A stretch of DNA of 63,860 bases, counting the filler, from Chrysochromulina tobinii (taxonomy: Eukaryota): NCBI GenBank assembly GCA_001275005.1. It is 6 parts of 6 records of this genome, joined end to end, with 100 filler letters (N's around TTAATTAATTAA, not from the genome) between each part and the next. Parts side by side here need not be neighbours in the genome. Positions count along the whole stretch, not along the records: positions 1 to 20,512 come from JWZX01000797.1; 5 more parts are not named here. One strand, given 5' to 3'. The notes beneath the pieces were generated by a model that was not told where the DNA came from, ran no database searches, and saw only the letters and a program-made list of their open reading frames with translations. Every line of letters starts with the position of its first letter. The first letter of the stretch is position 1. This document shows positions 2,694 through 56,400 of the stretch, piece after piece. A program made the position numbers and the translations under genes.

Positions 2694-3069
2694 CTACGAC
2701 TGCAACATCCTACGACTGTCTGTTGGTGCGAGGCGCAGCACGGATCCGGGCACGCGCTCCTCCCCGTCGTCCGCCGCGGCCCTGTCGGCGGCGAGCGTGA
2801 GCAAGAGCCAGACCAGGAACTCGGTGCGCGAGAGCCCCTGCAAGCGCGCGAGTTGGTCGACCTTGCGCCGCGCGCGGCTCCACAGCGCAGGCGCAGGCGC
2901 CACATAGTCCCATCCAGACACTTCGCCTCCTTGCGAATCCGAAGCCCGCAGCCCAATGCTGCCCTCGCCGCCGTCCAGAGGCTCAAGGTGCAGGTGTGAC
3001 GGGTATGCGAACACGTCGAGAAAAGGCAAGTCGCCACTGTTGAGGTCGGCAACTCCTCCGCCGCCGTTC

Positions 3070-3113
<44 letters not shown>

Positions 3114-5216
3114 GCCACCACCCGTGAAAGCACCGCTGCTCTCGGCGGCCGCGCCGCCGCTGCTGGCCACCTCTGGTTCCACCCTCCTCCGATGGGCCCG
3201 CGGGCGCAGCGGCGAGGGCACCTGCTTCGCGAGGAGCGCCGACCAGCGGATGTGCTCGAACCACGCGTGGGCGCGCATTGTGGCGGGATCGGCCAGACGC
3301 GAATGCTCGTCGCGCACCAGGAGGCGATCGACGAGCTCGCGCGCGCCAGCCGAGGGCGACGGCGGCGCGCCGTCCTGAGCGCTCTCGTCAGGCTCCGGAA
3401 TCTGGCCCTCGCCGCCGTGATCAGGCGGTGTGGCGCCCGGTACGGCGTCCGTGCCGCCGCCCAGTACGGCGCCCAGCTCGAGCGCGCCTGCGGGCCACGG
3501 CGCTCGCCACGGCGCTCGCTCACCGTGGAGGATTTCGTCGATGAGCCGAGCGTGCGCATGCATGTGCTTTTGGTCGGCGGGGTATGGAGGACGACCAACA
3601 AGGCACTCAAACATGAGCACCCCGTAGGACCACCAGTCCGCCGCCACCGTGTACCCCTTGCCTCGGAGCACCTCGGGGGCGGCCGCGAACGGCGTGCCCA
3701 CGACCGTGTAGGTGCGCCCTCCCGAGGTGAGTCGCTCATCGCGCTTGGCCGCGTTCAGGTCGGCGATCTTGACGTGACCGAGCGCGTCGATGAGCACATT
3801 CTCGGCCTTTATGTCGCGGTGGATCACGCCTGCGTCGTGTAGTGCCTCGATGGCGAGCAGCAGCTCAGCGCATACGAAGCACGCGGCAGGCTCGGGCAGC
3901 CGTCCATACGGCCCCGAGCGGATGTGCAGCCCGAGGTCACCGCCGGCACAGTAGTCCATCACGAGGTACAGGTGCTGGCGGGTCTGGAACGCGCTGTGAA
4001 GCTGGACGACGAACGGATGACACGTCAAGGATTCGTCAAGGATTCGTCAAGGATGCGTCAAGGATTCGTCAACGCAACGCACCTGGACGACGAACGGATG
4101 ACGAATCCTTGACAAGATGTCTCGTTCGGCACGCGCGCCGCGCAGAGCGGTCACGCCGCCCTCGGCAGTGGCCTGCTGCGGCCCGATGCGCACCGCCTTG
4201 AGCGCGACCTGCTGCTTCGTATCGCGGCGCACGGCCTTGATGACTGTACCGAAACCACCGCGGCCGAGAACCTTTCGCTGCTCGAAGAGGGCCGCTCCGA
4301 GGGCCGAGGTGAGCGCTTCGGAGACCTCGGCGGAATGCGACTCGGCGCTCGCGAGATCGAGCGCCGACTTGCCCGAGAAGACGCCCGCGCACGCGGTCAG
4401 CAGCGTGTCGGCGTGCGCGGCGAGTAGCGCTTCGACGACGCTCGCTTGTGCCTTGAGGCACGCCCAATGCAGCGGCGTCACGCCGAATCGGTCGGGCGCA
4501 TCCACGCTGGCGCCGTGGCGCACGAGCGCGCGGACCGCGTCCGCCTGGCCGTAGCCCGCCGCATAGTGCAACGCGGTCCGCCCGACAGAATCGCGGTGGT
4601 CGACGAGCACGGCCGGCGGCCGACGGCGGGAGGGGTGGGCGGCGCGCACGCCATTGCGCTCGCCCGCCGCCGCAGAAGAGGATGGCGCAGCGGCGGAGGG
4701 GGCAGAGGCGGCAGCTGAGGGTGGCAGGGGTAGGGCGCTCGGCTGCAGCGGCGAAGACGAAGAAACTGGCAAGTCGGCAGATGGCGCCGCGAGTGCGAGC
4801 TGCTCGCGCAGTCTGTCCCACTGCTTGAGCCGGGCCAAGTCGACTGGCTGCGCGGCCAGCCAATCCCTCGCTTGGATGGCGGAGGTGGGCGAGGTGGAGA
4901 GCGCGGATGAGTAGAGCCCGATGTCACCGACGTCAGCCAGCTCGCCGTTTCCCGCGAAGTCCGGAAAGATCACCGGGATGTGGATGGAGGGACTCCTGCT
5001 GGGGACTGGACTCCTTCCAGAGCCGCTGCTCTTCGCTGAGTGGGTCGCTTCATTCTCTGAGTCGCTGCTGTTCGACGGACGGATCCCCGAGCCAAACAAG
5101 CTCCACCCGCTCCCGCTCTGCGTCGGTGAGCGACGTTGCGCGGCCGCCACCGTCGCCACAATTGCAGCCATCAAGAATAGATTCGGAGGGGCTCGGCGAG
5201 TTTCGTCGTCGGACAC
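2694..5216 (-). CDS. Ankyrin-repeat AGC-group Ser/Thr protein kinase (2 exons; intron 4002-4082)
   Basis: Ankyrin motifs GRTALHYAA and GVTPLHWAC. Kinase motifs LGRGGFGTV, VALK, HPFVVQ|LHSAFQT, HRDIKAENVL, IADLN (DFG variant), VGTPFAAAPE, DWWSYG. A GT..AG intron joins two same-frame ORFs. Confidence 0.92.
4002..4082 (-). other. 81-nt spliceosomal intron with 20-nt flanking duplication and internal 11-nt repeats
   Basis: GTGCGT...CCAG. CTGGACGACGAACGGATGAC occurs at 4002-4021 and 4083-4102. The intron contains an in-frame stop. Confidence 0.88.
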
Positions 5217-7265: not shown

Positions 7266-8807
7266 TCACTTCGCCTGGATGCTGTACATGTCTCCGCCAG
7301 AGCCGAAGAGATTGCAGTGCACGTGCTTCCCGGCGGCGACAGCGTAAACCCGACCGTCGTCCATGGACTTGATGTCAGCAGTCACCATGGAGCCGGAGGT
7401 GACCATCGTGAACAGCGGCTCGGCTGCTTGCACGCCAAAGACGGCGATCTGTGGCGAGACGCCAGCACTCCCCCCCCACGTAGCCACCACGAAATGCTTG
7501 CCATCCTCGGAAGCTGCCATGGCGCTGGGCAGGTTCTGCACCGTAGAGCCAGCGTCGGAGGGATACGGGTACGTCCACAGCGGCGTCATCGGCGCCTTCA
7601 CATCGTGCAACATCACGGTCACCTGTGTGTACGTAAGCGCCGTCCAGCCAATCGCGAGCGTGTGCGAAGCTTCCCCAGCGGGCTCGGATGACCTCTGATG
7701 ACCTCCGATGACCTCGGATGATCTCGGATGAGCTCGGATGAGCTCGTCAGCTTGAATCGTCTGCACGCTGCACGCGGCAGCAAAGGCTGCACCCGGCGCA
7801 GGACCGTTCAGGCTGGCGACCTGGTCGTAGCTGGCCCCATCCTTGGACACGTGGAAGAGATCAAAAGTCTCGAAGCCATAGCCCATCACGGCGCCATCGC
7901 GCGAAAAGCAGAGGGTGCTCGTCGAAAAGTCGAACTTGTCCTGCCAGAGCAACGTGCCTGTTGAGCGCTTGATGACGGCCACGGCCACCTCCTTCGTGCC
8001 GGACACGACCGCCGCAAAGAGGTTGGTGGTGCTGATGAATGCCCGAATGTTGCTGTCCCCGAAAGTAGTGTTGTCGGCGTTCCACACACCCAAGAGTCCG
8101 CCTGTGGCCGCGTCCCATTCGTACATTTGCCCGTGGAAGCCGGTCTGGGCTGGGTACGGAGGGAGGGCGTATGTGACGGCGACGCTGACCACTTGCCCAT
8201 CGGGTGAGACCCCGATGGCGGTCGCGCCAACGTTGCGAATGACGGTCTCCCAAAGCTTAAACCCGGTGCTTGTCACGGTGGCAGTCACCGTGCACTGGGC
8301 CGCGTCGGCACCCACCGCACAGAGCGCGCTAGCCGTGATGTTTTCCGCCGACGCGCTGATGTAGCCTTGGCCCGATGCGGACCACACTACCGTGGAGCTG
8401 TTCGCGTTGTACACGTCCACTGCTGCCTCGGGCCCGCCGTTGTCGCCGAGACTCGCGGCGATGAACGGCACTGGGTCCAACGAACCGTCGCCGTACGAGA
8501 ACGTGGTGGTGTCGTAAATGGCTTCGTCGTCGGAGACGTGGAAGAGCACTTTCCCCGCGAGTGGCATGGGCGCTGACGGCAGCGTGACACGCTTCGTCGC
8601 GTTGTTGTGGATGGAGAAGCTATCCGACTCGGCTTTCCACTGCGCCAGTTGGCGCCGAACCTGTTCGTCGGGGGCGTTGCCGATCATCTGCCGCACCGTG
8701 TGCGGCAGCTCCTGCACTACTTGGCGGGGCACCAATGTGGCAGGGAAAGCGACCGCTACATGCAGGACGCACGCCAGACTCGTGGCAGCCCGAATAAACG
8801 ATGCCAT
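7266..8807 (-). CDS. Secreted beta-propeller-like (PQQ/WD-like) protein
   Basis: Signal-peptide-like MASFIRAATSLACVLHVAVA. Repeated TG.xLW and SxDG turns (TGFKLW, VSPDG, TGTLLW, FSRDG, SEDG). Confidence 0.7.
   Translation of the reverse strand: MASFIRAATSLACVLHVAVAFPATLVPRQVVQELPHTVRQMIGNAPDEQVRRQLAQWKAESDSFSIHNNATKRVTLPSAPMPLAGKVLFHVSDDEAIYDTTTFSYGDGSLDPVPFIAASLGDNGGPEAAVDVYNANSSTVVWSASGQGYISASAENITASALCAVGADAAQCTVTATVTSTGFKLWETVIRNVGATAIGVSPDGQVVSVAVTYALPPYPAQTGFHGQMYEWDAATGGLLGVWNADNTTFGDSNIRAFISTTNLFAAVVSGTKEVAVAVIKRSTGTLLWQDKFDFSTSTLCFSRDGAVMGYGFETFDLFHVSKDGASYDQVASLNGPAPGAAFAAACSVQTIQADELIRAHPRSSEVIGGHQRSSEPAGEASHTLAIGWTALTYTQVTVMLHDVKAPMTPLWTYPYPSDAGSTVQNLPSAMAASEDGKHFVVATWGGSAGVSPQIAVFGVQAAEPLFTMVTSGSMVTADIKSMDDGRVYAVAAGKHVHCNLFGSGGDMYSIQAK
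7682..7746. repeat. 6 x 10-nt GGATGACCTC-type tandem repeat, in frame inside the CDS
   Basis: ggatgacctc tgatgacctc cgatgacctc ggatgatctc ggatgagctc ggatgagctc, flanked by GCTCG at 7682 and 7742. Confidence 0.85.
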
Positions 8808-8984
8808 GTCGATGATTACTGTCGCGACGCTCGTACAGACAGAGCTTCCGTCCGCGGCCACGGAAAAACATGCATCACGGCCACAGAGGGGGGGGACTCT
8901 TTGTTCAGGGTACCCGGTAGTCAATTAGATTCGTCGCGGTCCCCCCGAACTTTGATCAGAACTTTGATCATTTCACACAGTCAG

Positions 8985-9061
8985 TCAATCAGTTTCGTCG
9001 CGGTCCCCCTGCGCTCACCTCACTTGCTCAAAGGACGGCTCCGCTCCCCTCGGTCAACACA
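8985..9061. repeat. Dispersed ~80-nt repeat, copy 1 (partial extra copy at 8921-8945)
   Basis: TCAATcAGTTTCGTCGCGGTCCCCCTG..GCTCACCT..CTCAAaGGACGGCTCCGCtCCCCTCGGTCAACACA matches 11618-11699. Confidence 0.85.
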
Positions 9062-9285
9062 AGTATACCGACTACTGTGTACTCGCCATCATGGTACTCG
9101 CTCGCTCGGCCCAGGCTCGGGCTACTCAATCTCAAATCTCAATTTCGCAAGTGAGGTCGAGGTCTCTCTTACCCTGAACCCCCCTCCCATTTCACACATT
9201 TAACCTCTGAAGTCTGATGATCCTCCGTCGACTGTCCACATTAGGGACCACTCTAAAATCCTCACACAAAATCATTCGTGGACGA

Positions 9286-14438: not shown

Positions 14439-16543
14439 TTATACTCGTCGACTTTGTGTGATGTCGTTGTGGGTTCGGAGGGCGTCGCTTTGAGAGCGCG
14501 CTTGTTTGGTCGCGCCCGCGCCTGCCTCGCTCAGATGATAGGGCCAGGAGCGTACGCCGTCGAGCGAGCTAACGCAGTGCCTCCGCTGCGCGGCAATCCG
14601 CTCGCCCGCCGCGCCAGCCTCGCGCTCAAGACGGCGCTCGAGCTCGCGCATCTCCGAGACGCCCTGGGCGTCGTCTGGTTCGGTCGCGCCAAAGTGGTTG
14701 TCGAGCCCGCGATACACGACACGCGCGCTCTCGTCCATGATCGGCTCGCTGTCGGCGTGTACCTCAAGGAAAGTACACGTAGCCAGCTGCAGGACACTCA
14801 CCTGCCGTCAAGGAGCGAGCATGCGGTCATCAGTGGCAATCAAGCCACGCTCATGTTCGCCGTGCATGCATGTGGTCATCAGAGGCCATTCCGTTACGGC
14901 ACTCGCAGCGACGTGGCGAGCTGCGAGGCGGCCACGGCATGGTTCCGGTTTCGTCACGGAATGGTTCTCGTTTCGTCACGGAAGGGTTCTGGAGTCCGGA
15001 AGGGTTCTGGTTTCGTCACGGAAGGGTTCCGGTTTCGTCACGGAAGGTTTCTGGTTTCGTCACGGAAGGCGCTCACTGAATGGTTCTGGTTTCGTCGCAC
15101 GAGGGAGCCCTCGACGATTGCATGCGCGCTGTTGTGGCACACGAGCCCGTCATTCCGGTGCCCCTCCACGATGCAACTGGACAGCTTGAGCACCGCCTCA
15201 CCGCTCACGGCAGCGCCCAGAGCGTTGCACCGGAGGTCGCAGCACGAGACGGCGACCATCCCCGCCCCTCGCAGGAGTAATCCCATGTGACCGTTGTGCT
15301 CAATGACAGATCCCATCAGCTCGCTCGGCGCGCGGCTGAAGAACTTGAGGCCCGCGAGCGCGTTGCCAGCGACCAGGCAGTCGTGCAACCATAGCCGTGC
15401 CGCGTGCTGGACGGTCACACCCGACCTGAGATGGTCACGGATGTATGTGGCTCGGCACAGCACGCGTGCGTTGCCCTGCACCAGCAAGCCAGTCGACGGG
15501 CGCGCTGGTACGACGGCTGTGAATGTGAATGGTCCGTCGTTCACATTCACAGCTGGTACGACGGTCGCCGTTGCCGCCACCGAGAGCGCCGCCGCCGCCG
15601 CCGCCGCCGCCGCGCTTGTCGAGCCGGGGGGCGCGTGAGGGTCGGCCCAGCCTCGGCTCAGGACGCCCAGGATCTCGCTGCCCGAGATCGCAACCTCGGC
15701 GTGACCTCCCGCGCGCACGCCGCCGTGCACGACGCAGTCGTCGAGCGCCCAGATGCCTTGCTCGCCCACCGCCACACACCGATAGTCGGCCACCGGCGTC
15801 GCCCCCGGCGGCATGTCCGGGTCCTCTGCAGCATCGAACCCGCCACCCAACCCCACCGGGGGCGCTGCCGGCGCGCCGACGCCGCCTGTTGCGTCTGGTA
15901 GCGTGAGCGTGAGCCGGCACAGCTGCCCTCGGCCGTTGGCGAGCACCAGCTGCGCACGCAGCACGGTCGCCAGCGCGAGCACCGACGTGGCGCCACCCCA
16001 CGTCGCGGTGGGCACCTGTGCTGACGCAGCGCCTACGATTCGCACCGAGGCGCTCACCCTCAGTGTGCCCTCGTCGAAGATTCCAGCCGCGAGGCAGAGC
16101 GTGTCACCGTCGCGCGCGCTCTCGAGGGCTGCCCGAAGGCTCGCAAAGTGGCAGGCGGCGCCGCCCACACGCAGCGCGCGGGCGCTGCCCAAGAGACCGG
16201 AGCACGGCCATGAAGCATGCGGCAGCGGCAGTGAGGCCACTCGAAGCGCGTAGTACTCGAGCACACTGATCGTCGTGCCGACCGTGCGCGCCACCCGGGT
16301 AGACAGCTGGGACGGCCAGGGCATCCAGCCGCGTGCCTCGATCATCGCCTTAATGCACTGCTCAATGAGTGCGGTGCTTAAGATTTGCCTCAGCGCCTTG
16401 CATGTTCCTGAGAGCGCCGCGAGGGCTCCGTGACAAGAGACGCGCTCCGCAATCTCCTGGAGCAGCGCGTCTGGGATCATGTCGAGGCGGCTGGGCGAGC
16501 CGAGTTCCTCCAGCGTGTCGCCCATCATCTTGTCGCCCATCAT
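14439..16543 (-). CDS. F-box plus right-handed parallel beta-helix protein (FBXO10/11-like architecture); intron 14802-15076
   Basis: F-box LDMIPDALLQEI..LSGTCKALR, FASLRAALESARDGDTLCLAAGIFDE and PbH1-like repeats. A phase-0 GT..AG intron joins NHS|VSVLQLATC. Confidence 0.8.
14802..15076 (-). other. 275-nt intron filled with ~21-22-nt exon-derived tandem repeats
   Basis: GTGAGC...GGCAG. About 6 units of CCGTGACGAAACCAGAACC(C/A)TT resemble the exon end GTGCGACGAAACCAGAACCATTC. Confidence 0.7.
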
Positions 16544-22276: not shown

Positions 22277-23071
22277 AAAATGATTGTGCGAGCACTGTGA
22301 ACATGTGTGGATCGCTGTTTTGGGTTCTGTGAAGATATTTCCTAATTTGGCAGCTGCCTTAAAAGGCGTTTTCAATAGGGTGCTGAAAAATTTACGCAAA
22401 GCGAGCGCGCGCTTCCACAGAGAAGTTCGCCTGAAAACACGCGAGGAGTGCTCGAGAAAATTGCTCGCCATGCTGGCCTTCTTCCAGACATCCGCGGCGC
22501 ACACGAAGGTCTCTCAAGCTCGCAGCTCATGAATAACATCGACGACGCCAAGAGCGCCCTCCGAGTCACCCTCCGAGCCGTCGCCAAGCCCGGACTCGCG
22601 ATCGAGCTGTGACGGCTGGCGCCCTAAGCCACGGCACGACGGCTGCCCATAGGTGCCTGTGCACCGCCTGCGCGCGTACCAGCCCGCCCGCCCGGTCAAT
22701 CTGGCCAAGATGGCGCGCAAGTGCGCACAACAGCGCTGGAGGCTGGCTGCAAACGCGCATCGCCAAGCAGGTGCGTGCTACGCTCGGTGACGCACCTGAG
22801 GGCTGGCTTTGTCACGCACCTCGACGTGTGCTACTGTACAAGGACGCCTTTTCACGTGCTCGAGGCCAGTCGGCGCCGCGTCACGCTCGCCGAGATGACC
22901 TGCGAAGAAAACACCCGCGCTGCAGTCGCGTAAACTACGCAGTAAGCAACGCAGACATATCGATCCTTCAGAGCACGAAAAACGCCACGACCCGCACGAC
23001 CCACGTCCGAGGAGAGCTGTATAAATAGAGTAAACGCTCGCCAGACGAGATGCGCCCACAGATCGCAACAG

Positions 23072-23551
23072 TCACGCAACCTTAATCGCGGCCCACCTTA
23101 TAGTTGGGTCCCTAAATAGTATAGGCGTTCTCTTTAGCTGCCCTTGGTCACTCCAAGTCCAAGTCGCCTCGCACACCTCGCTGAGGGCGCGGCGAAGCTG
23201 CCGATGCAGCCTGGGCGCGCCGAGATGTGCAGCTGCACGGTGAACGCTGCGCGCGCGCTGCGCGTCCCACGCGCCTCGGTCCAGCAGCAGCGAGACTAGC
23301 GCCGCCGCAAACTCGTCGCTTGTGCGCGCGATCGCGATCGCGCCGGGCGAGCGTGCCGTCAGTAGCCCGCGAGCGCCCAGGTGCGGCGTCGTCACGAGCG
23401 GTACCGCATGGCCCAGGGCTAGCATGCATTCGGTCGCGAGGCCTGAAGGCATAAGCACCGGTGCCGCGAGCACACGAGCCTCGAGCATCGCTGGACTCAA
23501 ATCCTCCACTCGTCCGAGCGACTCGACGCCCTCGGCACGTGACTCGCGCAC
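23072..23551 (-). pseudogene. Orphan C-terminal fragment of a GT4/GT-B glycosyltransferase-like gene
   Basis: ARVLAAPVLMPSGLATECMLALGHAVPLVTT..GARGL..IARTSDEFAAALVSLL.D..W resembles the GT4 nucleotide-sugar-binding domain. No in-frame upstream exon found. Confidence 0.55.
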
Positions 23552-23808
23552 CTGATGAGGGGGATAAGGGGCGCTGTGGAGAGCACTTGTATGCAGCTTA
23601 ATGTCCTCGGCACGTGACTCGCGCACCTGCACTCAGAGCCAATCAACGGTGATCCGAGTCAGTGGCCATCAATGGCCATCAGTGAGCTCGCGCACCTCCG
23701 CGCGGTCCTCATCAGATACTCATCAGATACTCATATTGATAGGTCATCAGAGGCCATCAGAGCTCAGAGGTCATCAGAGATCATCAGAGGTCATCAGAGC
23801 TCGCGCAC
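23552..23808 (-). repeat. Stack of three intron-like insertions, each starting at a copy of AG|GTGCGCGAG
   Basis: CTCGCGCACCT occurs four times (~23543, 23618, 23688, 23800). A 25-nt direct repeat lies at 23530-23554 and 23605-23629. Fillers are CTGATGACCT-type and the stack ends in CCCTCATCAG. Confidence 0.75.
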
Positions 23809-23967
23809 CTCCTTAGAGTAGTGAAAGTATGTCCCCCCCTAGAATTTAGAAAAGTGCGCCCGGTGTGCTCGGGCCTGAATACAACCTCGACGACGTCGGA
23901 ACGTATTACCGGAAAAGCAGGGAAAAGTGCGAAAACACCGGTCCCGCGCGCGCGGTCCCCGCACTGG

Positions 23968-25923
23968 TCAAGCATCCATCTCACCTGCTCCTCCTTCCTC
24001 ACCTTCCATGTCAGCCTCGTCCTCGGACGACACGGAGTCTGCTGCTGCAGTGGGCGCAAGGAGCGCCCGGCGCCCAAGCGGAGGCAGTCCACTTGCGGGC
24101 TTCCAGCGCACATACTTACGCAGCGGGGCGCAGTGCATCGCCGGCGCCTCGCGCACGGCTGTCGCCCAATCGCCGCTCGCCGCAAAGCCCGCCAAGATCT
24201 GAAAGACGGCAAGGCAAGTGAGGCTCGTCTTGCGCACACTCACGAGATCGTCCAGCGGCAGCCGCGCCGCGCGCACACCGTGCGCCTCAGCTACGCGCAG
24301 GGCCTCGCCCACCCGATCGGATGTGTTCACGTAGTCGACGAGGCCGCCGATGACGAGCACGTCGGTGGCGCCGATGCTTTGGAGCACCTGCTCCGCATCC
24401 GCGCTGAGGTACACGACGGCGCCCAGCTCGAAGGCGTGCCACGGCGCTTCGGGGATGCGGGCGAGGGTCCATCGATCCCAAGCGTGCGTGGCGAGGGCGG
24501 CGGCGATGGGAGGATGCGTTTCACACCCGAGCCCGCACGCGGCCAGTCGAAAGGGCGCGCGCAGCTGTCGGTTGTACCCGAAGACCTGCGCGAGCTGCTT
24601 CGCGAGCGCCGCGCACTCAGCCTCGTGCATCAGCGCACCAAAGGAGCCTAAGTCGAAGGCAACGGTCGCGCTATGCGCGGCGGCCGCCAGTGCTGCCTCG
24701 CCCTTCCGCTGCCGCCTCGACTGCCTCTGCACCGCACACACGAAGAGTGAGAGGCAGACGCCGCCGCCCGCGATGCCCGAGGGCGCGACGCGGATGCTCA
24801 CGCGCGCAGCAGAGGCCGGCTCTCCTGGCGCCGTCGCGGGCGGCTCTGATGGCGCCGTCGCGGGCGGCTCGGCTGGCGCCGTCGCGGGCGGTTCTGATGG
24901 CGCCGCCGGCGACGGCGCCGGCAAGGGCGCCACCAGCAATGCCGATGCCTCCAGCGACGTCGGCATCGTACCATCGGGCTTAGCGACCGGACGCGTCGCC
25001 GTTACGAGTGGCGCACTTGAGCCCTCCGTCTGGATCTGGTAAAAGGTGGTGATGAGCCCTGGCGATTCGGGCGCATCGCCCTTGCCAAGCGTAGCAGCCA
25101 CACAGCCAGCTCGCTCAAAGGCGCGGATCACCTCGGCGGCGTTGCTAAAGGTGGCCGAGGTGTCGGTTGCTCGGTCGCGGAAAGCCATCAGGCACACGCG
25201 CGGCGGCCCGCATGCCGATGCGCCAGCTACGGCGCTCGAGCTCGGTGGCGAATGCAGCAGCCCGGCAACGGTCGCGACGAAGGGCTCGACGAGGTCACGC
25301 AGCCACACGCACTCGGCCGCCAACACCACCTCGGCTTCCCGAGCGTCGTTAGGGTGCATCTGCTCCTCGAGAGGGCCGAGCCAATTCAGCGCTTGGGCAG
25401 CGATGGAGCCCGTGCCCACCTTGACCGCGCCGCGCCACGCGCGCCCTACGGCCGGTGCCTCCGCCTCCGCCGCTCCGGACGGGTAGGTGCCGTTTTGAGC
25501 GTCCACGCCGGCGCCGGCGTTGGCCTGGACGTTGGCGGCGAGCGTCGTGGACACAACCGCGGGTACATCGGTCACGAGGACGTGAGCTCCGGCCGCCGCG
25601 GCGCACAGGCCAAGCAGACCTATCCCCGAGCCGAGCTCGACGACCCGACGGCCACGCAATGTGCTCGTGAGCCAGCTGTGCGGGCTCGGCTGCCGTAGCA
25701 GCTCGATACAAGCCCAGGAGCCCTCCCACATCAGGCTGCCCGTCGACGCAGCGACCGAGTAGTCCGCGTCAAAGAAGCACGGATCCACCTGGTCCCATTC
25801 TTCCTCAATGTTCCGGCGCTGCACCACCAGACGAACGCCATGCACCGTGGCCGTCACCGCCACCGACGCGCAGCCACCACCGACCTGCACCGCCGTCGGC
25901 GGCGCCGTCAACGTCGACACCAT
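23968..25923 (-). CDS. Fusion: Methyltransf_16 (METTL21-like) domain plus TRM10-type SPOUT tRNA m1G9 methyltransferase
   Basis: STGSLMWEGS, RRVVELGSGIGLLG, VLVTD, LNW, AAECVW. Then VAFDLGSFGALMHEAE..LAKQL...YN, VVYLSADAE, VLVIGGLVD, ARLPL and LT..VFQIL....DW..A. A terminal intron 23839-23984 with stop at 23813 is possible. Confidence 0.88.
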   Translation of the reverse strand: MVSTLTAPPTAVQVGGGCASVAVTATVHGVRLVVQRRNIEEEWDQVDPCFFDADYSVAASTGSLMWEGSWACIELLRQPSPHSWLTSTLRGRRVVELGSGIGLLGLCAAAAGAHVLVTDVPAVVSTTLAANVQANAGAGVDAQNGTYPSGAAEAEAPAVGRAWRGAVKVGTGSIAAQALNWLGPLEEQMHPNDAREAEVVLAAECVWLRDLVEPFVATVAGLLHSPPSSSAVAGASACGPPRVCLMAFRDRATDTSATFSNAAEVIRAFERAGCVAATLGKGDAPESPGLITTFYQIQTEGSSAPLVTATRPVAKPDGTMPTSLEASALLVAPLPAPSPAAPSEPPATAPAEPPATAPSEPPATAPGEPASAARVSIRVAPSGIAGGGVCLSLFVCAVQRQSRRQRKGEAALAAAAHSATVAFDLGSFGALMHEAECAALAKQLAQVFGYNRQLRAPFRLAACGLGCETHPPIAAALATHAWDRWTLARIPEAPWHAFELGAVVYLSADAEQVLQSIGATDVLVIGGLVDYVNTSDRVGEALRVAEAHGVRAARLPLDDLVSVRKTSLTCLAVFQILAGFAASGDWATAVREAPAMHCAPLRKYVRWKPASGLPPLGRRALLAPTAAADSVSSEDEADMEGEEGGAGEMDA

Positions 25924-26107
25924 TTATGCCTCGTGCTCGCGCATTTTTCCAAACGCGGTACTGTACACAGATCACAGCTCTTCTTGAGGCTCTGCAGAGA
26001 AACCTCAGGGACGTGTCACGGCCCGAGCGCCATCAGCGGAGAAGTGAACTCTGTGCTGTGCTGTGGAATGTTACCGGTAAATGGTTGCCGACCGGTAGCA
26101 AAAATCC

Positions 26108-27802: not shown

Positions 27803-28073
27803 GCGTACGTAAGCATGCACAGGGAGGGATCTCAATTGGATCTCCAGCTCTCTCGCACGAAAGACTCGTTGCGCTGTCGGAGCGCGCGAGACGAAGGAAA
27901 TGCCGTGAAGGACGGAAGAGGGAGAGAGAGAGAGAGAGAGAGGAGCACTTATTCTTATTTGGCTTTTGGGTACGTGTTGTGAAGATAGCCTGCTCCCATG
28001 TGCTCCCACTTCAAGAGAGGAACTTACTGTGGAACGCTCATTCACACTCCTGGTCGAACGGTTTCCAGCGCGG

Positions 28074-31000
28074 ATGGAAGCCTTCCGCGCCGCCATCAAA
28101 GCGGCGGTGACGGCCAATGGCGGCGAGCCACACCATGCAATTCGGCATGAGCTGCGCGGGAGGCAGCCGTGGGTCGGTGACGGCTGGGTGGATGGTGACC
28201 TCGAGCTTCTTGCGCTCGCCATGTCCATCCGGCCGTGCCAACCCGACGAGGTCATCATCACATCGGCCGAGCGTGGCGATTGGTTTGGCGTCGTCCTCTC
28301 CGGCTCGCTCGCCGTCGAGAAGAAGGGCGCGCAGCTCGCCGTGCTCGGCCTGGGCGACGTTGTCGGCGAGATGGCGGCGCTGCACCCAGCAGCCGAGCGG
28401 TGCGCTACCGTGCGAGTGCGGGGGGCGAGTCCGAGCCGTCTCGCAACGATGACGACGAAGCAGCTGCAGAACTTTGTGCGCGACTGGCCGGGCCTTGGCA
28501 CGCGGCTCTTGCGCACGCTGGGGCGCATCGCAGCCGTGCGCCAGCTCGAGAATGGAAGGAGCGACCTATGCGCCTTGGTGCCGAGGAGCATAGAGTGGTC
28601 GATGACCGTGCCTGACCCTTCGACGGAGAAGTTCGATCGCTTCGACCTGCACGAGGCGTACCGCGCGCGGCTGGCGACGCACCTCTGCCGGCAGCTGGAG
28701 GTGGCGCCGGCGAGCGCGGGCCGCTTCGATGACGCCGAGCTCTCACTGCTCGTCGACCGCGCGCAGTTCCAGCCATTCCGCTCGGGACAGCGCCTCGTCG
28801 GCGAAGGCGAGCACATCGACAGCGTGATGGTGCTCCTTCTCGGCTCCGCCTCCTTCGAGCGCTGGTCCGTCGAGGTGGGCGAGGGCGGCGTCCTTGGCGC
28901 CCATGAGTTCTTCGGAGTGCCGTCGCTGAGCGCCGCCTCGGCGGTTGTGGCCAAAGGGGACGGTGTGCTCGCAGGCTGGACAACCCTGCATTTAACCGAA
29001 CTGATGGCGCATGACGGTCCGCTGATGATGCCGCTGATGACCTCGGATGACCTCTGATGACCTCTGATGGCGCACGACGGTCCGCTGATGGCCTCTGATG
29101 ATCCTCTGATGACCTCTGATGATCCTTGATGACCTCTGATGATGATGACCTCTGATGATCCCTGATGAACCGTCCAAAGAGTTCCCTCGGATGGCCTTTG
29201 ACGAACCTCTGATGGCCACTGATGAACCTCTGATGACCTCACTCATCAGGCCCGCTCGCGTACAAGCTCATCCAGTTCATCGGCCGCTTCGCGATGGGCA
29301 TCGGCGCGACCCTCTGCCACGTCCTCCGCGAAGACGCTGTGCATGCAAACACCATGCCGCAGCGCGAGTTCCGTGCGGGGGTTGGAGGCTCGCATAAGCG
29401 TGCTGGTGGCGTGCGATACGTGGTCATTGGCGGCAGCGGCAGCAACGGCGGCGGCAGCGGCAGCAGCAGCGGCGGCAGCGGCGGCAGCAGCGGCAGCGGC
29501 GGCAGCGGCGGCGGCGGCGGCGGCGGCGGCGGCAGTTCGGCAGCGGCCGAGGCTGTGTACATAGAGAAGATGCAGCAGCAGGCGGAGCGGCTACGTGCCC
29601 AGCTGAGCGAGAATGAGCGGCTGTCCGCCGCGCTGCAGGTGAGTGTCGTTAATTGCCTCTGATTGCCATTGATTACCACTGATTGCCACTGATTGCCACT
29701 GATTGCCAGCTGAGCGCGAGTGAGCGGCTGTCCGCCGCGCTGCAGGAGAAGACCCACGCGTCCGCGCGCTATCGGCTGCAGGTGAGTGTCGTTAATTGCC
29801 TCTGATTGCCACTGATTGCCACTGATTGCGTCCGCGCGCTATCGGCTGCAGGTGAGTGTCGTTAATTGCCTCTGATTGCCATTGATTGCCACTGATTGCC
29901 ACTGATTGCGTCCGCGCGCTATCGGCTGCAGTACGCCGCCGCAGCCAAGCGGCTCGAGCAGCGCGACGTTGACAATCGACGGCTACAGACCGAGCTGGAA
30001 GCGGCGTACACGCAGCTCGAGCAGCAGCGGGGCGCGAGCTCGGAGGCGCATGCCATCCTCGAAGAGCTCGCGGGTGTGGTTACGGCCGTGCTGGACGATC
30101 TGCCCAATCTGGATCACGAGATCCGTTCGCCCAACACGGCGCCCAATCTGGAGCACGAGGTCGGCCCGATCGGGTCGCCCGACACGGCGCCCGCGTACGG
30201 CTCCGCACCTTCGGATCTCGGCGAGGGCGAGGGCGCGCTCACGACGGCGCGCACCCCCAGGCAGCTGGCGCCCACGACGGCGCTCCCGAGCCTGCGCGCC
30301 GCCCTGAGCGCCGCCCTGCTCTCCGCGGTGCGCCTGCTGAGGGAGCACGCGCTCACGACGGCGCTCACGAGCACGCCCACGACGGCGCTCGAGCGGCCGC
30401 ACCCCAACTCGCCCGTCGGGTCCGCGCGCCAAGCGGCGCTCTCGCCGCCCAAGACGGCGCTCTCGCCGCCCAAGACGGCGCTCTCGTCGCTTGGGTGCAG
30501 CTCGGCCGGGGAGGCGCCCAAGACGGCGCCCAGCCTCCACAGCAGGCGCGGTTTCGCCAGCCGTGCCGCGTCCCTCGCCCACGACGGCGCGTGCGAGCCC
30601 GGGGCACCGGGCGCCCAAGACGGCGCCAGCGCGTGCAGCGCGACCGCGATGCTCGCAGACGCAACCGGCGGCGCTCGAGACGGCGCGAGCGCCGTCGTGA
30701 GCACCACCGACGCGCAGCCGGCCGCCCCGCCGGTGCACCACGCGAAGAGCGGCGCGGCGGCGCCCTCTCAGAACAGGGGGGCAACGGGCACGACGGGGAC
30801 GACGGGCGCCGCCGCGGGCGCGCCAGGCGCCGCCGCGGGCGCGCCTGCCACGCGCGAGTCCGTGTGCGAGATTGGCGTGCAGGCGGGCGGCTACCGCGTG
30901 CCTTACCCGAGCGTGGCTGCAGCGCCCCTGAGCGGCGAGGAGACGACACGCCCTCTGAGCCGCGCGTCTGCGCTGGTGCGTCGGGCGCACTCGAGCACGC

Positions 31001-32199
31001 AGACGAGCACGCTTGGAGTCGGCACCGCGCGCAGCCGTCTAGAAACCTTTGCCGCCCAGACGCAGACGGAAGAGAGCTTCCTCGACGGGATGGCGGTGAC
31101 GCGCCCGCCTCGCATGGCGGCGGGGGTGTACGGCGCACCCCACCCGAGCGCCGTCCTGAGCGACGCGGCCACTGCAGAGGTGATCCTCGAGGCCCTCGAT
31201 GCCGCTCGGTACGGCGCTCCTGCACGGCACGAGTTCGTGTGTAACGGCTCGTCGGCCGTGACGCAGAAGCAGACGCCCGTACCGTCCACTCAGCCATCGA
31301 CTCGGCCTTCGACGGCCGCCTCACGCCCTTCACGCCCATCCACAGCGGGTGGCGGACGCGTCTACCCCTCGTCCTTGAGCGCCGGCGTGGCCGCCTCGAC
31401 CATGTACGCGGCGCTGCCACGGAGCACCTCCTCACCCACTTGCCGGCCGGCCTCGGCGACGCCGACCAGCATGGCCTCGGCGACGCCGACCAGCATGGCC
31501 TCGGCGCAGTCGAGCACGACCAGTACGGCCGGGCCGCTCGCCATAGCCGTGGCCATCACAGCAGCGGGCGGCGCCGGTGCTCGCCACGGCGCCGGCGCTC
31601 GCCCCTCTTCCGCACTGGAAGGCTCGTTACGCTCCAAGGGGAAGCTCCCTGAGCGCCGTCCTGAGCGAGGCTCCCTCAGCTCGCCCAGCGCCGTGGCGAG
31701 CACCGGCGCCGTGTCGAGCACCGGCGCCGTGGCGAGCACCGGCTCCCTTGGCTCGCTCAGCGCGTCCCAGTTCCAAAAGGCACGTTTCCACGGGCCGCTG
31801 CCTATGGTGCGCCTCGTTCAGGGCTTCAGCCAGAGCGGCACCCCTCATCGGCTGCACAGCATCGAGTCCGAGGCCGACCTCGAGCGGCAGCTGCAGCAGC
31901 TGGGCCTGCCGCCCTCGACCCGCTGGGTGCCCAATCCGGCGCCCAACCCGACGCCCAAGACGGCGCTCGGGCCCAGCCCGTGCAGCAGCGCCCTCACCTC
32001 GTGCCACGCGTCGCGCCCGGGCTCGGCGCACGCGCCGTGCTGGGCACCGGGCTGCCACGCGTCGCGCCCGGGCTCGGCGTTGCCCGCCTCGGGCAGCGCC
32101 GGCTCGGCCGTTGGCTCGGCCGTTGGCTCCTCGTCCCGCGCCGGCTCAGCCTCGCACGTCCGCACGGAGCTGCCCGGCTCTATAGAAGGGGAAGAGTAG
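28074..32199 (+). CDS. Protein with two cyclic-nucleotide-binding-like domains, a coiled coil and a low-complexity tail; introns 29017-29249, 29639-29745, 29782-29931
   Basis: ERGDWFGVVLSGSLAV..LGLGDVVGEMAAL..RCATV and a second repeat LVGEGEHIDSVMVLLLGS..GGVLGAHEF. Three ORFs are joined in frame by GT..AG introns. Confidence 0.8.
29017..29249 (+). other. 233-nt phase-1 intron made of CTGATGACCT-type repeats
   Basis: G|GTCCGCTGATG...ACTCATCAG|GCCCGCT restores DG-PLAYKLIQF. Confidence 0.75.
29639..29931 (+). other. Three near-identical introns (29639-29745, 29782-29851, 29852-29931) around a 36-nt exon
   Basis: Each starts GTGAGTGTCGTTAATTGCCTCTGATTGCCA, continues with (CTGATTGCCA)n and ends in a copy of the preceding exon's 3' end. 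All are phase 0. Confidence 0.88.
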
Positions 32200-46722: not shown

Positions 46723-48307
46723 GGCGCCCCCGGTGCCGCTGCCGCCGCTGCCGCCCCTGCCGCCGCTGCCGCCCCTGCCGCCCCTGCCGCCCCTGCCGCC
46801 CCTGCCGCCCCTGCCGCCCCTGCCGCCGCTGCCGCCGCTGCCGCCGCTGCCGCCGCGGCGTCGTCTCGTAACGAATCCGCGGCAGGGTTGATGAGGGACG
46901 CAATCATAGGCAATCAACATGCAATCAACAGTAACGAATCCGCGGCAGGGTTGCTCGTGTTCCGCTCCGCTGGTCGTACAGAATTGCTCCGCTGCCTCGG
47001 CTGGCGCGTTTATTCAGATCCGTTCCAAGTTGAACAAGCCGTGGCTGTGCTCGAGGCGGCCGGCCAGTACGAGCGAGCCGCAATCACAGCCATCTTCCAA
47101 AGCGGCGCGCATCCGGCGTACGATGAGCTGGGGCGAGCGGTGCGCTGCCTGGAGCGAGGTGGTGCGGCGAGCGCGGCGACGGCGCCCGAGCGTTCCTCGG
47201 CGCTCCGCATGATGGCGATGGTGCTCGCTGGCTTCCAGCCACGCGCACCTCTGTGGTGGTCGACTGTGCACTCGACCGCTGCCTCACTCTCGTCGCCGCA
47301 CCTGCGCCTGCTGCTCGCCGTCCTGTGCTCGTCCCTCTCGAGCATCGGCCTCAGCGGGAATCACTCGGGGGTCCGCAGCAGTACTGACGGCGGCAGCGGC
47401 GGGGGAAGGGGCAGCGGCGCCGGCGCCGGCGCCGGGGGCCTCGTGCGTGACACCTCGTTGGACTCATCGGGGCCCGATGTGATCGACATCTCCCCCTCCA
47501 CCTCGCCAGTCCCCAGCTCTCCCCCCTATTCTCCCCCCGTGCGCTCTCCGGTGCTACGAGGCACGCCGATGCGCTCGGGTGCCGACTTCGTCGGCGTCGC
47601 CGTCGGCCCCGAGCCGCCCCACGTTACCACGTCGATCCCTGGTGGAGGGCACGGCGCACATTTAGAGCACGGCGCACATTCAGAGCACGGCGACTCTTCA
47701 CAGATGCTGCAGCAGCTGGTGGTGGAGGCAGAGGGAGGCGCGCTCGATGGCGATCCGCACGGCGGCGCGCTCTCGGCTGCCGATGACTTTTACACCGACG
47801 CCCTCGCGATGGCATGCCGCTTCCTCCCCGACACACAGCTCCGCTCCCTCCTGCGCCGCCTGGTGACCGTAGCACGCGACGCTGGCTCGCTCGGCGCTCT
47901 CAGCCTAACGGGTCTCGGTCCTTCAGCGGTGCCCCTCCTCCAAGCGTACTTGGATCGAACTGCCGACGTGCAGTCGGTTGTGCTGCTCTGTGCGCACGGG
48001 CCTGCCTCTCTCCTCCGCCACGAGCGCGTGCAGCGATGGTTGAAGCTGTACGCGGAGATGCTCAACCAGTGGCGCTTATACCACGCGCGCTGTGCGCTCG
48101 ACATCGCGGTGGCCGCGAAGCTGAGGGAAGCTGGGCCGCCGCTGCCGCCGCCGCTGCCGCCGCCGTCTGCTTCGTTGCGCCCGAGCCTGGCGACCCTTGT
48201 GGAGCCCAGTGCACAGGTGTACGCGCGCTGTGGCTACTGTGCCAACCCGTTGACGACCAATGGGGCGCGCCATCTTGGGCGCTCTCCCGCGTCGGAGAGC
48301 GGCGGGA

Positions 48308-53488: not shown

Positions 53489-56400
53489 ATGATCAATGAT
53501 CAGCTGCGCCGGACGATTGCGCCGGGCTCGCAAGCGCAGGAGCTCTGCTACGAGTCATGCTCGTCCACGAGCTCCGCTCCTGACGACGACGTGGCCGCTG
53601 CCTTCGGAGGCCGCGGCGGCAGCGGCCGATGGTCGCCCTTCACTGCAGGCAGCACGGCAGCCATGCCAAGCTCGCCATTTCTTGCCTCGCCAGACGGTAA
53701 CTCGTCCTCGTGCGGCGGGAGTGCTGTGGCGCTCACGCCCGAGCTGCGACCGGCCGAGGCTCCCGTCGCGCTCGAAGACTGGTCACCGACGAGTGGCGAC
53801 ATACTTGCACCGAGTGCAACCGTAGAGGCTGCTGCTGCGCAGGCAGCAGAGACAGCGGTGCTGATCTCGCCACCGGCAGTTGGACAGGCTCGGCAGCCCG
53901 CCTCGTCAGCGCTGACTGCACGCCAACTGCTCTTGGCGATGGACGCGGATGGCGCCGCACCAGCGGCCTCGGAGGATGCGGCGCTGGCCGGGGCGGCGCT
54001 GGCCATGGCGGCTGAGGCGCTTCCTTTTGGCTCGACTGCGATCCCGCTTTGCCCTGTGGGTGACGAGCCGCGTATGCGTGCTCAGCTGAGCCGCTGCCGC
54101 GCGCAGCTCCAAGCGGCACAGGTGCAGCTGCAGCTGGCGACCTCGCAACTGGGCGCTACGAGTGAACGGCTAGAGTGCTGCGAGAGGGAGCATGCAACGC
54201 TCACACATAAGGTGGCCGAGCTCGAGACGGTTCAGCGGGCGCTCGGAGTCACCGAGGGCTCCACCGAGGAGGCCGACGGCCACGGCGTGCTCGGCGGCGC
54301 CGTCGCGGGCGCCCGAGCGGCCCGTGTGATCCCTTCTCTCGATGCCCTGCGAGGGGCTGTGGGGCGCCTCGCCGACGAGCGGATCGAGGCGCTCGAGACG
54401 GCGCTCAGCACCAAGGACGCGCAGCTGCACGAGCTGCAGGCGCTCGCGTGGGGCGCGTATGCCGACGACAGCGCCGTCGCGGCCGAGGTGCAGCGGTTAC
54501 ACATCTGATGACATCTGATTACACATCTGATGACATCTGACATCTGATGATATCTGATTGCCTCCCTCATCAGGTGCAGCGGTTACACGACGAGTTGGCG
54601 CATGCATCCTCCAAGCATCGACAGCTCACGGCGCACGCACAGGCGGCAGAAGCCACGTTCGCTGAGAGGGTTCGCAACTCTCATGCCGAGCAGGAGGAGC
54701 TCCGCGCGAGCATCGCCGCCCTAACGGCTCAGCTCCGCTCCCAGCAGGCGTCGGAGGCGTCTCTGCGTGCGGCGTACGAGGACGTGAAGGCATCAGCAAG
54801 TGCGAGCGCGGCGGAGGCGGCGAGGCTGGCTACGGTCGAGGCAAGGTTACTCGCCACGCTAACGGATCGGGAGCAACAGCTGCACGTGGCCATCGCACAG
54901 CTCGAAACCCACGCCGCCGAGATCGATGCCTTACGGCGCGGCTCGTCCGCCCATCAGCTCTCCGCGCGCTATGATGAGCAGATCGAGATGCTCCAACGGC
55001 AGGTAAGCGAGCAGGCCGCGCGGGATGCGCAGGCGCTGTATCAGGCGCAGGCGGCCGTTGAGGCGGCGAGGGCGGAGGCGCGTGAGGCACACGAGCGCGC
55101 CCGCCGCAGCCGCGAGCTCGCGGAGTGCCTCGAGATCGAGCAGGCGGCCCATTCACAGACCAGGGCGCAGGCGGCCGAGCGGTTGGCGGCGATGGCCGAG
55201 CGCGAGCGGGCGTTGCTCAAGGAGCTCTCCACTGTCCAGAAGCAGCAGCAGCAGCAGCAGCAGCAGATTCAGCAGCAGCAGCAGCAGATCAAGCAGCAGC
55301 TCAACGCTGCGCCCAACTCGCCTGCTGTCCACACAGCCGGCGGTTGCGCATGGATCGAGGACAGCACGATGAGCGCCTTCCCCAACCCAGTCACCGCGTC
55401 GCCGCCCTCGCCCCCCACCGCGAACGCCGACAGCGGCAGCGCCGGCAGCGATGGGCTCGAGCCGGAAGGGGACGCTGCATCGGGGGGTCTCCCCGTCGTT
55501 TCTTCGCCGCCAGCCCAGGGACTCGTCCTTCCTAATATGGGACTCGTCCTGCCCGAGTCGCTCGTCGCGTCGTCGTGGTCACCGCCCTCGGCTTCGTCAA
55601 CCTCCTCGGCACGCTCGACGCACTCTTTGCGCTCCACGCGCGCCATGCCGATGTCGCCCTTGCCGCTCGCGCCGCCGCCGCGCGGCCTCGAGGCCATGCT
55701 GCAGTCGGCTCAACGTGAGATCGAGGGGCTGCACGACGTGGTGCGTCAGCAGATGCACGTTCAGGGCGTCCTCGAGAACGAGCGCGCGGCCGTGCTCGAG
55801 CGTGAGCAACGGGCGGTCAGCGAGCACGTCGCGCTGCTCGCGCACACCGAGAGGCTAGAGACCTTGCTTGACGACGCTCGCCAGACGGCGACCCGAGCGC
55901 GTTCGCAAGCGGCGCAGGAGGTCGAGGCACGTGCGGCCGTTGAGGCGCAGCTCTCGGAGGCCAAGGCGCGCACAGCGCAGCTCGAGGCCAAGCACGCGCA
56001 GCTCGAGGCGAGCGCCGCCATGCAGCTCGAGACGGCCGTTCGGCAGCTGACCGACACGGTGGCCGCTCATCTCACGGAGATCTCGATGATGCGAGAGGTG
56101 GCCGAGCGCGAGAAGGCTGAGCTCAAGAGCGAGCTCAAGGCGCAGCATGCAATCGCGCTCAAGGCCGCCGAGGAGCGGCTGCACAACGCGCCGCCGCCGC
56201 GCCAGCCGCCTCAGCCGCATCACGACGCGCTGCTCGGCGAGGTGCCCAGCACGGCGCTCGAGACGGCGCTCCATAATAGGCAGGAGGTGCCCAGTGCGGC
56301 GCCGCCCCTCGGCGAGGCGCTTCGTCAAACCTCGGAGCTGTGGGGACAGCCGAGCGCAGAGGCGGCGGCGGCGGTGGGCGCGGCGATGGGCGCGGCGGTG

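What the first reader, a model, noticed from the sequence alone, without database searches (positions are those of the whole stretch)
4002..4113. Kinase intron built from an inverted, reiterated copy of its own upstream exon
Seen: the intron's 3' 20 nt duplicate the upstream exon end (GTCATCCGTTCGTCGTCCAG on the minus strand). Its interior is about 4 copies of GTCAAGGATTC on the plus strand, the exact reverse complement of exon bases 4100-4113 (GACGAATCCTTGAC). Almost the whole intron is therefore locally templated. Inference: snap-back or template-switch synthesis during break repair (polymerase-theta-like templated insertion) created a spliceable intron with no foreign element.
Basis: partly seen in the sequence, partly recalled or inferred. 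Interest (0 to 1): 0.78.

Follow-up and report, generated by a model that had tools for sequence, protein, structure and literature searches.

The report
Intron stitched from its own exon
An 81-base intron in a kinase gene of the alga Chrysochromulina is cut out of the RNA, and 68 of its bases are forward or reversed copies of the exon next to it, so it is likely a DNA-repair scar that became an intron, in a genome where several other likely introns carry the same kind of long duplication.

Summary
Window 4002-4082 (minus strand) is a GT-AG intron in an ankyrin-kinase gene of Chrysochromulina tobinii, skipped in RNA contigs of 2 of 3 runs laid. It has an 11-nt donor leader, 48 nt of a repeated inverted copy of exon bases 4099-4113, two spare bases and a 20-nt copy of the exon end. 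No 10-mer of the array occurs elsewhere in the window. Orthologues on long contigs read through the site, so the intron was probably gained.

The claim 'no foreign element' is only partly supported. The donor leader has no local template. Five other loci in the window have 16-25-nt duplications, mostly around a shared TGAY-repeat filler; the scan noted that family earlier in this genome (e1-2577349). One of 14 conspecific database proteins runs into what looks like that shared filler at this same site. The exon codons that served as template are unusually rare, so copying may have gone both ways.

Best reading (0.45): staggered break, fill-in, fold-back and repeated re-priming between two GTCA motifs. 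Polymerase theta was not tested. A new variant of break-repair intron gain.

The parts
4002..4082 (-). 81-nt GT-AG spliceosomal intron, phase 0, inside the kinase domain
   Evidence: RNA contigs of X14 and X15 skip it; stops in all frames; KOO35641.1 joins here
4072..4082 (-). 11-nt donor leader GTGCGTTGCGT; no local template of 6 nt or more; varies between strains
   Evidence: run-on peptides VRCV, VHCV, VRAL
4024..4071 (-). 4 x TGACGAATCCT plus TGAC: repeated inverted copy of exon 4099-4113; second unit has one substitution in this strain; last unit puts a branch-point-like TTGAC about 24 nt before the AG (motif recalled, not tested)
   Evidence: perfect second unit in 8 of the 12 VxCVDESLT-type run-on proteins
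4022..4023 (-). 2-nt spacer; on the + strand 4018-4027 reads TGAC-AC-GTCA, a 4-bp fold-back
   Evidence: sequence
4002..4021 (-). 20-nt exact copy of the exon end; supplies the AG acceptor
   Evidence: D3
4083..4102 (-). original of the duplicated 20 nt (end of exon 1); begins at the second GTCA of the template
4099..4113 (-). 15-nt exon template bounded by GTCA at both ends, 11 nt apart; codons for L-S-R-I-R-H are rare for this gene
4083..5171 (-). exon 1: ankyrin repeats and kinase N-lobe (363 codons from the first ATG)
2694..4001 (-). exon 2 frame: rest of the kinase domain and C-terminus (435 codons; the NCBI model removes a further short piece, not examined)
29639..29745 (+). predicted intron, same layout: GTGAGT donor, TGATTGCCAC filler, 25-nt exact (about 38-nt imperfect) copy of the upstream exon end
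   Evidence: frame restored; splicing not tested
29782..29931 (+). two head-to-tail predicted introns (70 and 80 nt), each ending in a 24-nt exon copy; their 5' 30-36 nt match the intron 143 nt upstream
   Evidence: splicing not tested
54488..54573 (+). predicted intron, mirror layout: 17-nt duplication supplies the GT; family filler ends in CCCTCATCAG
   Evidence: splicing not tested
46868..46953 (-). 23-nt duplication around family filler without a clean GT..AG placement
23552..23808 (-). stacked units with 16-25-nt duplications and mostly family filler; intron status not supported by the frame test

Best explanation
This spliced intron is likely the scar of one break-repair event in the kinase exon, in which fill-in of a staggered break would duplicate 20 exon bases and a slipping repair polymerase would copy the neighbouring exon backwards four times between the two copies. 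Shown: the intron, its splicing, the 20-nt direct copy, the 15-nt inverted match, and that the duplication starts at the second GTCA of the template. Inferred steps: (1) two nicks about 20 nt apart, or an equivalent staggered end, are filled in; (2) the + strand end at TGAC (4018-4021) gains two bases and folds back to make GTCA; (3) that GTCA primes on the TGAC at 4110-4113, copies 11 nt to the next TGAC, slips back and repeats; (4) an untemplated or slipped 11-nt leader supplies a GT donor, the duplication supplies the AG, the array supplies length and a TGAC branch-like motif, so the insertion is removed without changing the protein and survives. The same duplication-plus-filler process likely works across this genome, usually copying filler from other introns; here it used the local exon. 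The polymerase is not identified.
For: Anatomy and chance tests. Splicing in 2 of 3 RNA runs laid. Gain: of 23 non-conspecific homologues among P0005-P0021 and P0035-P0048 that cover the site, 19 read through it and none breaks exactly there; six read-through clusters have members on contigs of 8-57 kb, probably DNA. The local type is common and diverse in the species: 13 of 14 run-on proteins among 15 listed of 21 cluster members, in four variants. The unit is not more family-like than chance: 150 of 689 background TGAY 11-mers are as close to family units, and 173 of 886 coding windows align as well to family arrays. Duplication lengths in the window vary (20, 25, 24, 17, 23, 16-25), unlike the fixed 3-8-nt duplications of described introner classes. 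Proximity templating elsewhere: 29782 and 29852 share their 5' part with the intron 143 nt away. Precedent: snap-back and multi-round templated insertions (PMC2943611, passages); tandem duplications from fill-in of staggered breaks (PMC8355091, passages).
Against: The donor leader has no local template. P0054, one residue different from the window's exon 1 over 298 aligned residues, ends VMGTDDP-stop, the peptide signature of the shared filler (TDDH/TDDL-stop in L072 and L087 arrays), so a family-type intron may exist at this site; it is one protein on one 1,561-nt contig. A TGAY pair 10-11 nt apart, the hallmark of the family, is rare outside arrays (13 in 125,654 nt), so a purely local event hitting one needs a selective filter. 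The template codons are rare (P 0.0009-0.002 by resampling; rank 2 of 450 windows; noticed by eye before testing; another cluster, LVGRPP, is rarer with no intron). P0019 has K for R inside the template and reads through. Four homologues break 2-15 nt downstream, so an older, shifted intron is not excluded. Only 1 of 9 candidates checked has an inverted local match above 7 nt (two of the nine had imprecise ends). No intron-free allele was seen as DNA.
Confidence: 0.45

Rival explanations
1. Family first: a short introner-like insertion with the shared TGAY filler made the intron and the 20-nt duplication; a later break inside the intron was repaired by fold-back onto the exon and replaced the filler.
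For: P0054's run-on peptide looks like family filler at the same site. Same layout as 29639-29745. Stereotyped family end CCCTCATC(AG) at 54488, 46868, L072 and L096. Earlier scan note e1-2577349 (unchecked lead). Chrysochromulina introners that carry the donor and take the acceptor from the duplication are published, with 4-nt duplications.
Against: Family type is 1 of 14 run-on proteins and shares an exon-1 variant (I84V) with local-type alleles, which fits a derived state as well. No family word of 10 nt survives in the window's intron. One short contig, protein level only.
Confidence: 0.25
2. A replication template switch (forward, one inverted 15-nt copy, return 20 nt upstream) made a 48-nt insertion, and ordinary slippage between its two TGAC ends later expanded it to four units. 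No break and no repair polymerase are needed.
For: The 15-mer has 4-nt terminal repeats that suit slippage; the last 33 nt of the exon are the most period-11 part of the coding region (14 of 22 matches, reached by 3 of 1,325 windows). Template switching between inverted repeats changes coding DNA in yeast (PMC8604942, abstract).
Against: It does not explain the leader, nor the many similar duplications around non-local filler in the same window. No unit-number variation could be seen, because run-on peptides stop in the third unit.
Confidence: 0.15
3. An older intron lay at or near this site; repeated local copying between intron and exon (both directions) overwrote it and rewrote several exon codons.
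For: Rare codons in the template; R/K variation there; four homologues interrupted 2-15 nt downstream; exon and intron can form a long hairpin (z -4.4, expected from the repeats).
Against: 19 of 23 homologues read through and none breaks at this position. A 3' end equal to the upstream exon end is what an insertion leaves behind.
Confidence: 0.1
4. Target-primed reverse transcription made the insert: a nick primes on RNA (the gene's own transcript here, other introns elsewhere) and the enzyme reiterates a short unit; the second nick gives a variable-length duplication.
For: Variable 16-38-nt duplications and simple-repeat tails are typical of non-LTR insertion (recalled). The inverted array would be the copy of a sense transcript. 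Non-LTR introners exist (about 5% of classified cases, PMC12130899, passages).
Against: No poly(A) tail, no element body and no reverse transcriptase link were found; nothing tested here separates an RNA from a DNA template.
Confidence: 0.05

Closest known systems
[quoted passage not shown]
   Same: New intron flanked by a direct repeat, read as fill-in of a staggered break with inserted DNA; different introns at one position ('parallel gains') are mentioned in the review.
   Different: The repeat here is 20 nt and supplies the acceptor; the insert source is identified and is the adjacent exon in reverse, reiterated; the review's examples with a known source are mitochondrial DNA.
Synthesis-dependent MMEJ / polymerase-theta templated insertions (PMC2943611, passages)
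   Same: Fold-back priming on a few bases, inverted repeat product, multiple rounds giving overlapping copies of nearby sequence.
   Different: Described at induced breaks in Drosophila, not as intron birth in the passages seen; no genetic link to polymerase theta exists here.
Introners that carry one splice site and co-opt the other from the target duplication, including Chrysochromulina sp. family 5 (10.1101/2022.06.06.494994, passages; 10.1101/2020.10.14.339549, parts 1-2 of 4)
   Same: Donor from the insert, acceptor from the duplicated target, mRNA unchanged.
   Different: Published duplications are fixed at 3-8 nt and copies resemble each other; here 20 nt, variable across loci, and this intron has no sister copy in the window.
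Intron gain by tandem duplication of an AGGT-containing exon segment (review PMC3443670)
   Same: Duplicated exon sequence provides a splice site.
   Different: The target reads CAG-CT, not AGGT; the donor and 61 nt come from the insert, not from the duplication.
10-11-bp tandem repeats in Emiliania huxleyi introns (Read et al. 2013; recalled, paper not held)
   Same: Period 11 array in a haptophyte intron, oriented with TGAY on the sense strand like the other arrays in this window.
   Different: As recalled, no origin from the flanking exon was shown there; not checked.

Membership tests
U2-type spliceosomal intron | GT..AG ends, removed from RNA at those ends | tested here: met
   contigs of RNA libraries, 2 of 3 runs
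U2-type spliceosomal intron | branch point used | not testable with these tools
   TTGAC about 24 nt before the AG is only a motif resemblance (recalled consensus)
Recently gained intron | absent at this position in orthologues | tested here: met
   19 of 23 homologues read through, none breaks at the site; DNA origin of the contigs inferred from length
Recently gained intron | intron-free allele in the same species | tested here: inconclusive
   P0019 reads through with K for R, but it may come from a transcript and its tail looks chimeric
Introner (transposon-made intron) | sequence-similar copies at other loci | tested here: not met
   no 10-mer of the array elsewhere in 64 kb; whole genome not held, so the test is limited to the window
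Introner (transposon-made intron) | one splice site taken from a target duplication | tested here: met
   20-nt duplication supplies the AG
Introner (DNA-transposon type) | fixed short duplication and/or terminal inverted repeats | tested here: not met
   duplications of 16-25 nt exact, variable between loci; no terminal inverted repeat at the intron ends
Shared TGAY-filler family of this genome | long target duplication supplying one splice site | tested here: met
Shared TGAY-filler family of this genome | filler sequence related to TGATKRCCWC arrays | tested here: not met
   similarity not above background; only the TGAY start and the 10-11 period are shared
SD-MMEJ / polymerase-theta templated insertion | insert is a direct or inverted copy of sequence within about 20 nt, with short priming repeats | tested here: met
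   15-nt inverted match 16 nt from the junction, GTCA/TGAC at both ends
SD-MMEJ / polymerase-theta templated insertion | dependence on polymerase theta | not testable with these tools
   no genome held; no statement on haptophyte POLQ
AGGT tandem-duplication intron | both splice sites from a duplicated AGGT | tested here: not met
   exon 2 begins CTT; donor lies in the insert

The most novel reading that the evidence does not exclude
Chrysochromulina makes introns without a transposon: staggered breaks duplicate 15-40 nt of target, and a slipping repair polymerase fills the gap from the nearest template with TGAY every 10-11 nt, mostly another intron, sometimes the exon itself. The apparent introner family is then a self-spreading repair template. 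This kinase site holds both outcomes as segregating alleles (local inverted array and family filler), which would also explain the 10-11-bp intron repeats of haptophytes.
Probability: 0.25. Interest if true: 0.85.

Novelty: new variant of a known kind. Interest (0 to 1): 0.58.

Why it matters
Most newly gained introns have no traceable source, and break-repair gain rests on short flanking repeats and very few sourced cases (five in the 2012 review's table). Here 84% of a spliced intron maps to the adjacent exon in a pattern that spells out the synthesis steps. The species is culturable and wild alleles differ at the site, so the origin of this intron, and of the long-duplication introns around it, can be tested with population sequencing and paired nicks.

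Tried and rejected
No whole genome was held and metagenome records could not be searched by handle, so the genome-wide count was limited to the window plus L072. DNA reads of other strains on the kinase site, and RNA on 22,300-36,250, were not obtained, so alleles were seen only as proteins and the other introns' splicing is untested. Metagenome scan with the kinase exon: of 80 loci only L001 is this locus (99.98% identical); L072/L073/L076 are one other locus of the same organism. Viral contigs: 0 hits for two filler patterns. GTDB genomes: 17 hits, of which two (L087, L096) look like haptophyte filler by eye and the rest like bacterial repeats. 'Longer' homologue search gave only animal RSKs. 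Rfam: 0 hits in the window. Idea that the unit derives from the shared filler: not above background. Idea that 14802-15076 is a second locally templated intron: its 15-nt direct match may be the first array unit left in the exon, so not counted. Frame test failed for 23552-23808; the 35018 row had wrong ends and was dropped. RNA fold follows from the repeats and is not evidence of function. Assembly artefact rejected: same intron in L001, in 13 run-on proteins with strain variants and in P0004/P0030. Literature: ten searches showed no paper on exon-templated or long-duplication introns in haptophytes; the library lacks most subscription papers, Read 2013 and Li 2009 were not held, and supplements of the introner papers, which list Chrysochromulina families, were not seen and may bear on novelty.

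Full report
What is there. The window is from Chrysochromulina tobinii or a very close strain: the exon-1 protein falls in a 90% cluster with KOO35641.1 of that species, and a neighbouring ORF clusters with KOO35643.1; GC of 60-74% fits the published 63.4% (PMC4580454, passages). The gene on the minus strand encodes ankyrin repeats and a Ser/Thr kinase; Pfam Pkinase positions 1-62 are in exon 1 and 64-263 in exon 2. Between them lies an 81-nt GT-AG intron, 4082 to 4002, with stops in all three frames. Removing it gives 399 + 435 open codons against 399 + 11 unspliced. Contigs of RNA runs X14 and X15, from two studies, skip exactly these 81 nt; X13 shows no joint and X12 was not read. These are contigs, and DNA can be present in RNA libraries, but the NCBI model joins at the same place.

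Anatomy. In gene orientation: an 11-nt donor leader (4082-4072); four 11-nt units plus TGAC (4071-4024); two bases; then 20 nt (4021-4002) identical to the exon end (4102-4083). One unit plus the next TGAC is the exact reverse complement of exon 4099-4113, which begins and ends with GTCA. The 20-nt duplication starts at the second of these GTCA motifs. So 68 of 81 nt are local copies (one mismatch) and 13 are not. The 11-mer has 5 hits in the window, all here, against 0.64 expected; no 10-mer of the array occurs elsewhere in the window. A whole-genome check was not possible.

Was it gained? Of 23 homologues from other lineages that cover the site (among P0005-P0021 and P0035-P0048), 19 read through without a break and none breaks at this position; four break 2-15 nt downstream and seven others do not cover it. 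One of the 19 is a eukaryotic gene model (Prymnesium parvum) and says nothing about introns. Six read-through clusters have members on contigs of 8-57 kb, which I take as DNA called without splicing; that is inference. The closest (82% over the matched part of exon 1) reads through. Gain in this lineage is the simplest reading. The nearby breaks leave room for an older shifted intron or a local hot spot.

Alleles. Gene callers run from exon 1 into the intron, so database proteins show its first bases. Of 21 cluster members 15 were listed; one is the spliced model and 14 run on. Four are window type, five have a perfect second unit, three also differ in the donor, one has a shorter leader: 13 of 14 carry the inverted array. 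The mismatch in the window's second unit is therefore a strain variant. The fourteenth, P0054, differs from the window's exon 1 at one residue and ends VMGTDDP-stop. TDDH-stop and TDDL-stop are what the shared filler arrays of L072 and L087 encode, and no such ending occurs in the six frames of the window. This points to a second, family-type intron at the same site, on the evidence of one protein from one 1,561-nt contig. P0019 reads through with K for R inside the template; it may be a transcript.

The wider pattern. The window has 37 clusters of exact repeats of 14 nt or more, 35-300 nt apart. Most are coding or array-internal. By eye, six loci are a duplicated target around TGAY-rich filler: the kinase, 8930, 23.5-23.8 kb, 29.6-29.9 kb (three units), 46.9 kb and 54.5 kb. 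With GT..AG placement and 15 nt or more there are 9 clusters, of which 3 are coding repeats, 1 is array-internal and 5 remain; 10 Markov simulations gave none. Removal restores long frames at 29.6-29.9 kb (134 + 767 codons) and 54.5 kb (365 + 809), not at 23.5 kb; none of these was tested on RNA. Two layouts recur: duplication gives the AG and the insert gives the donor (kinase, 29639, 29782, 29852), or duplication gives the GT and the insert ends in CCCTCATCAG (54488, L072 12884). At 46.9 kb the same footprint lacks clean splice sites. An earlier scan note on this genome (e1-2577349) reports the same footprint in over a hundred lake-metagenome introns; I confirmed the footprint in this window but not that count. 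Only the kinase intron has an inverted local match above 7 nt (1 of 9 checked; two had imprecise ends).

Is the kinase filler a family copy? Not by the tests run. The unit is two edits from the nearest family units, but so are 150 of 689 background TGAY 11-mers; 173 of 886 coding windows align to family arrays as well as this exon does. What is shared is the TGAY start, the 10-11 period and the orientation, and a TGAY pair at that spacing is rare outside arrays (13 in 125,654 nt). Either selection keeps only inserts with such a motif, or the process prefers it.

Direction of copying. The template codons for L-S-R-I-R-H are rare: P 0.0009-0.002 by resampling, 0.005-0.007 for the four not forced by the two GTCA, rank 2 of 450 windows. 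I noticed this by eye before testing, and a rarer cluster exists elsewhere in the gene. Orthologues mostly have S, A or T and V where this protein has R and I. The exon end is also the most period-11 part of the coding region. So the exon may have been partly rewritten against the array, as template switching does in yeast genes (PMC8604942, abstract), or a rare pre-existing proto-repeat may have invited the event. This is not resolved.

Mechanism. Fill-in of staggered ends makes small tandem duplications (PMC8355091, passages; in that system polymerase alpha-primase and NHEJ, with theta as back-up). Fold-back priming and repeated rounds make inverted, overlapping copies of nearby sequence (PMC2943611, passages). 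Read on the + strand, the insert starts at the end of the duplication with TGAC-AC-GTCA, continues as four 11-nt copies templated between the two exon motifs, and ends in a leader without template. I put this one-event repair origin at 0.45, family-first with later overwriting at 0.25, replication switch plus slippage at 0.15, an older overwritten intron at 0.10 and RNA-templated synthesis at 0.05. The sequence relations are shown; breaks, enzymes and order of events are inferred. No evidence on polymerase theta in haptophytes was found.

Comparison. It works like break-repair intron gain and like a templated insertion; it is not a member of the described introner classes, whose duplications are fixed at 3-8 nt and whose copies resemble each other, nor of AGGT duplication introns. 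Replitrons and fungal stwintrons were read as leads and do not match (passages). The 10-11-bp intron repeats of Emiliania are recalled, not read. Ten searches found no account of this anatomy in haptophytes, within the library's limits; introner supplements were not seen.

Verdict. Real, spliced, probably gained, and unusually legible. A new variant of a known route. Interest 0.58: the single intron is a clean example, and the two allele types at one site make the origin of the genome's long-duplication introns testable, but the key allele rests on one protein and the enzyme is unknown.

Noticed in passing
window 29639-29931 (+): Three predicted introns around a 36-nt exon; the last two are head to tail with no exon between them, each ending in the same 24-nt exon copy. 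Both must be removed for the frame to stay open.
   Followed up: partly
window 14802-15076 (-): 275-nt intron skipped in X15 RNA; a 22-nt array continues the last 22 nt of the upstream exon, followed by family filler. An upstream GTGCGA 24 nt earlier could be an alternative or original donor.
   Followed up: partly
window 7683-7746 (+): Family-type 10-mer array that stays in RNA contigs (X15 contig spans 7241-8850 without a gap); it lies inside the minus-strand ORF 7266-8807.
   Followed up: no
window 8930-9065: 16-nt duplication around TGAY-rich sequence upstream of ORF 7266-8807; RNA contigs pile up here with many loose ends, suggesting a multi-copy element or a 5' UTR intron. No Rfam hit.
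   Followed up: partly
window 28.9-29.25 kb (+): Long family array ending in CACTCATCAG; no GT donor near it keeps the frame except far upstream, several GC donors do.
   Followed up: partly
window 35018-35166 (-): Predicted intron in an aminopeptidase-like gene (label from recalled motifs) whose 3' part holds about four copies of a 14-nt unit resembling its own acceptor.
   Followed up: no
family filler ends, e.g. window 54555-54573 and 29232-29250: The stereotyped end TCATCAG is the reverse complement of the unit start CTGATGA, so the acceptor itself looks like a fold-back of the filler.
   Followed up: no
proteins P0044, P0047, P0048 and members: Another haptophyte lineage has the kinase interrupted 9 nt downstream (after LQQ), with at least three different run-on peptides, some starting like the downstream exon: possibly several intron alleles at one site there too.
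   Followed up: no
L081, L082, L083, L085, L088, L090: Bacterial intergenic repeats of the type CACTGATT(A/G)CCACTGAT resemble the haptophyte filler; chance or convergence not assessed.
   Followed up: no
L072 vs L076, 2.0-4.7 kb: Two assemblies of the same organism are nearly identical except for one divergent block of about 2.6 kb, perhaps a paralogue or divergent haplotype.
   Followed up: no
L072 10622-10750, 12670-13010, 17321-17460 region: More family introns or stacked units with exon duplications of 10-33 nt, one where a T-to-A difference in the copy creates the AG.
   Followed up: partly
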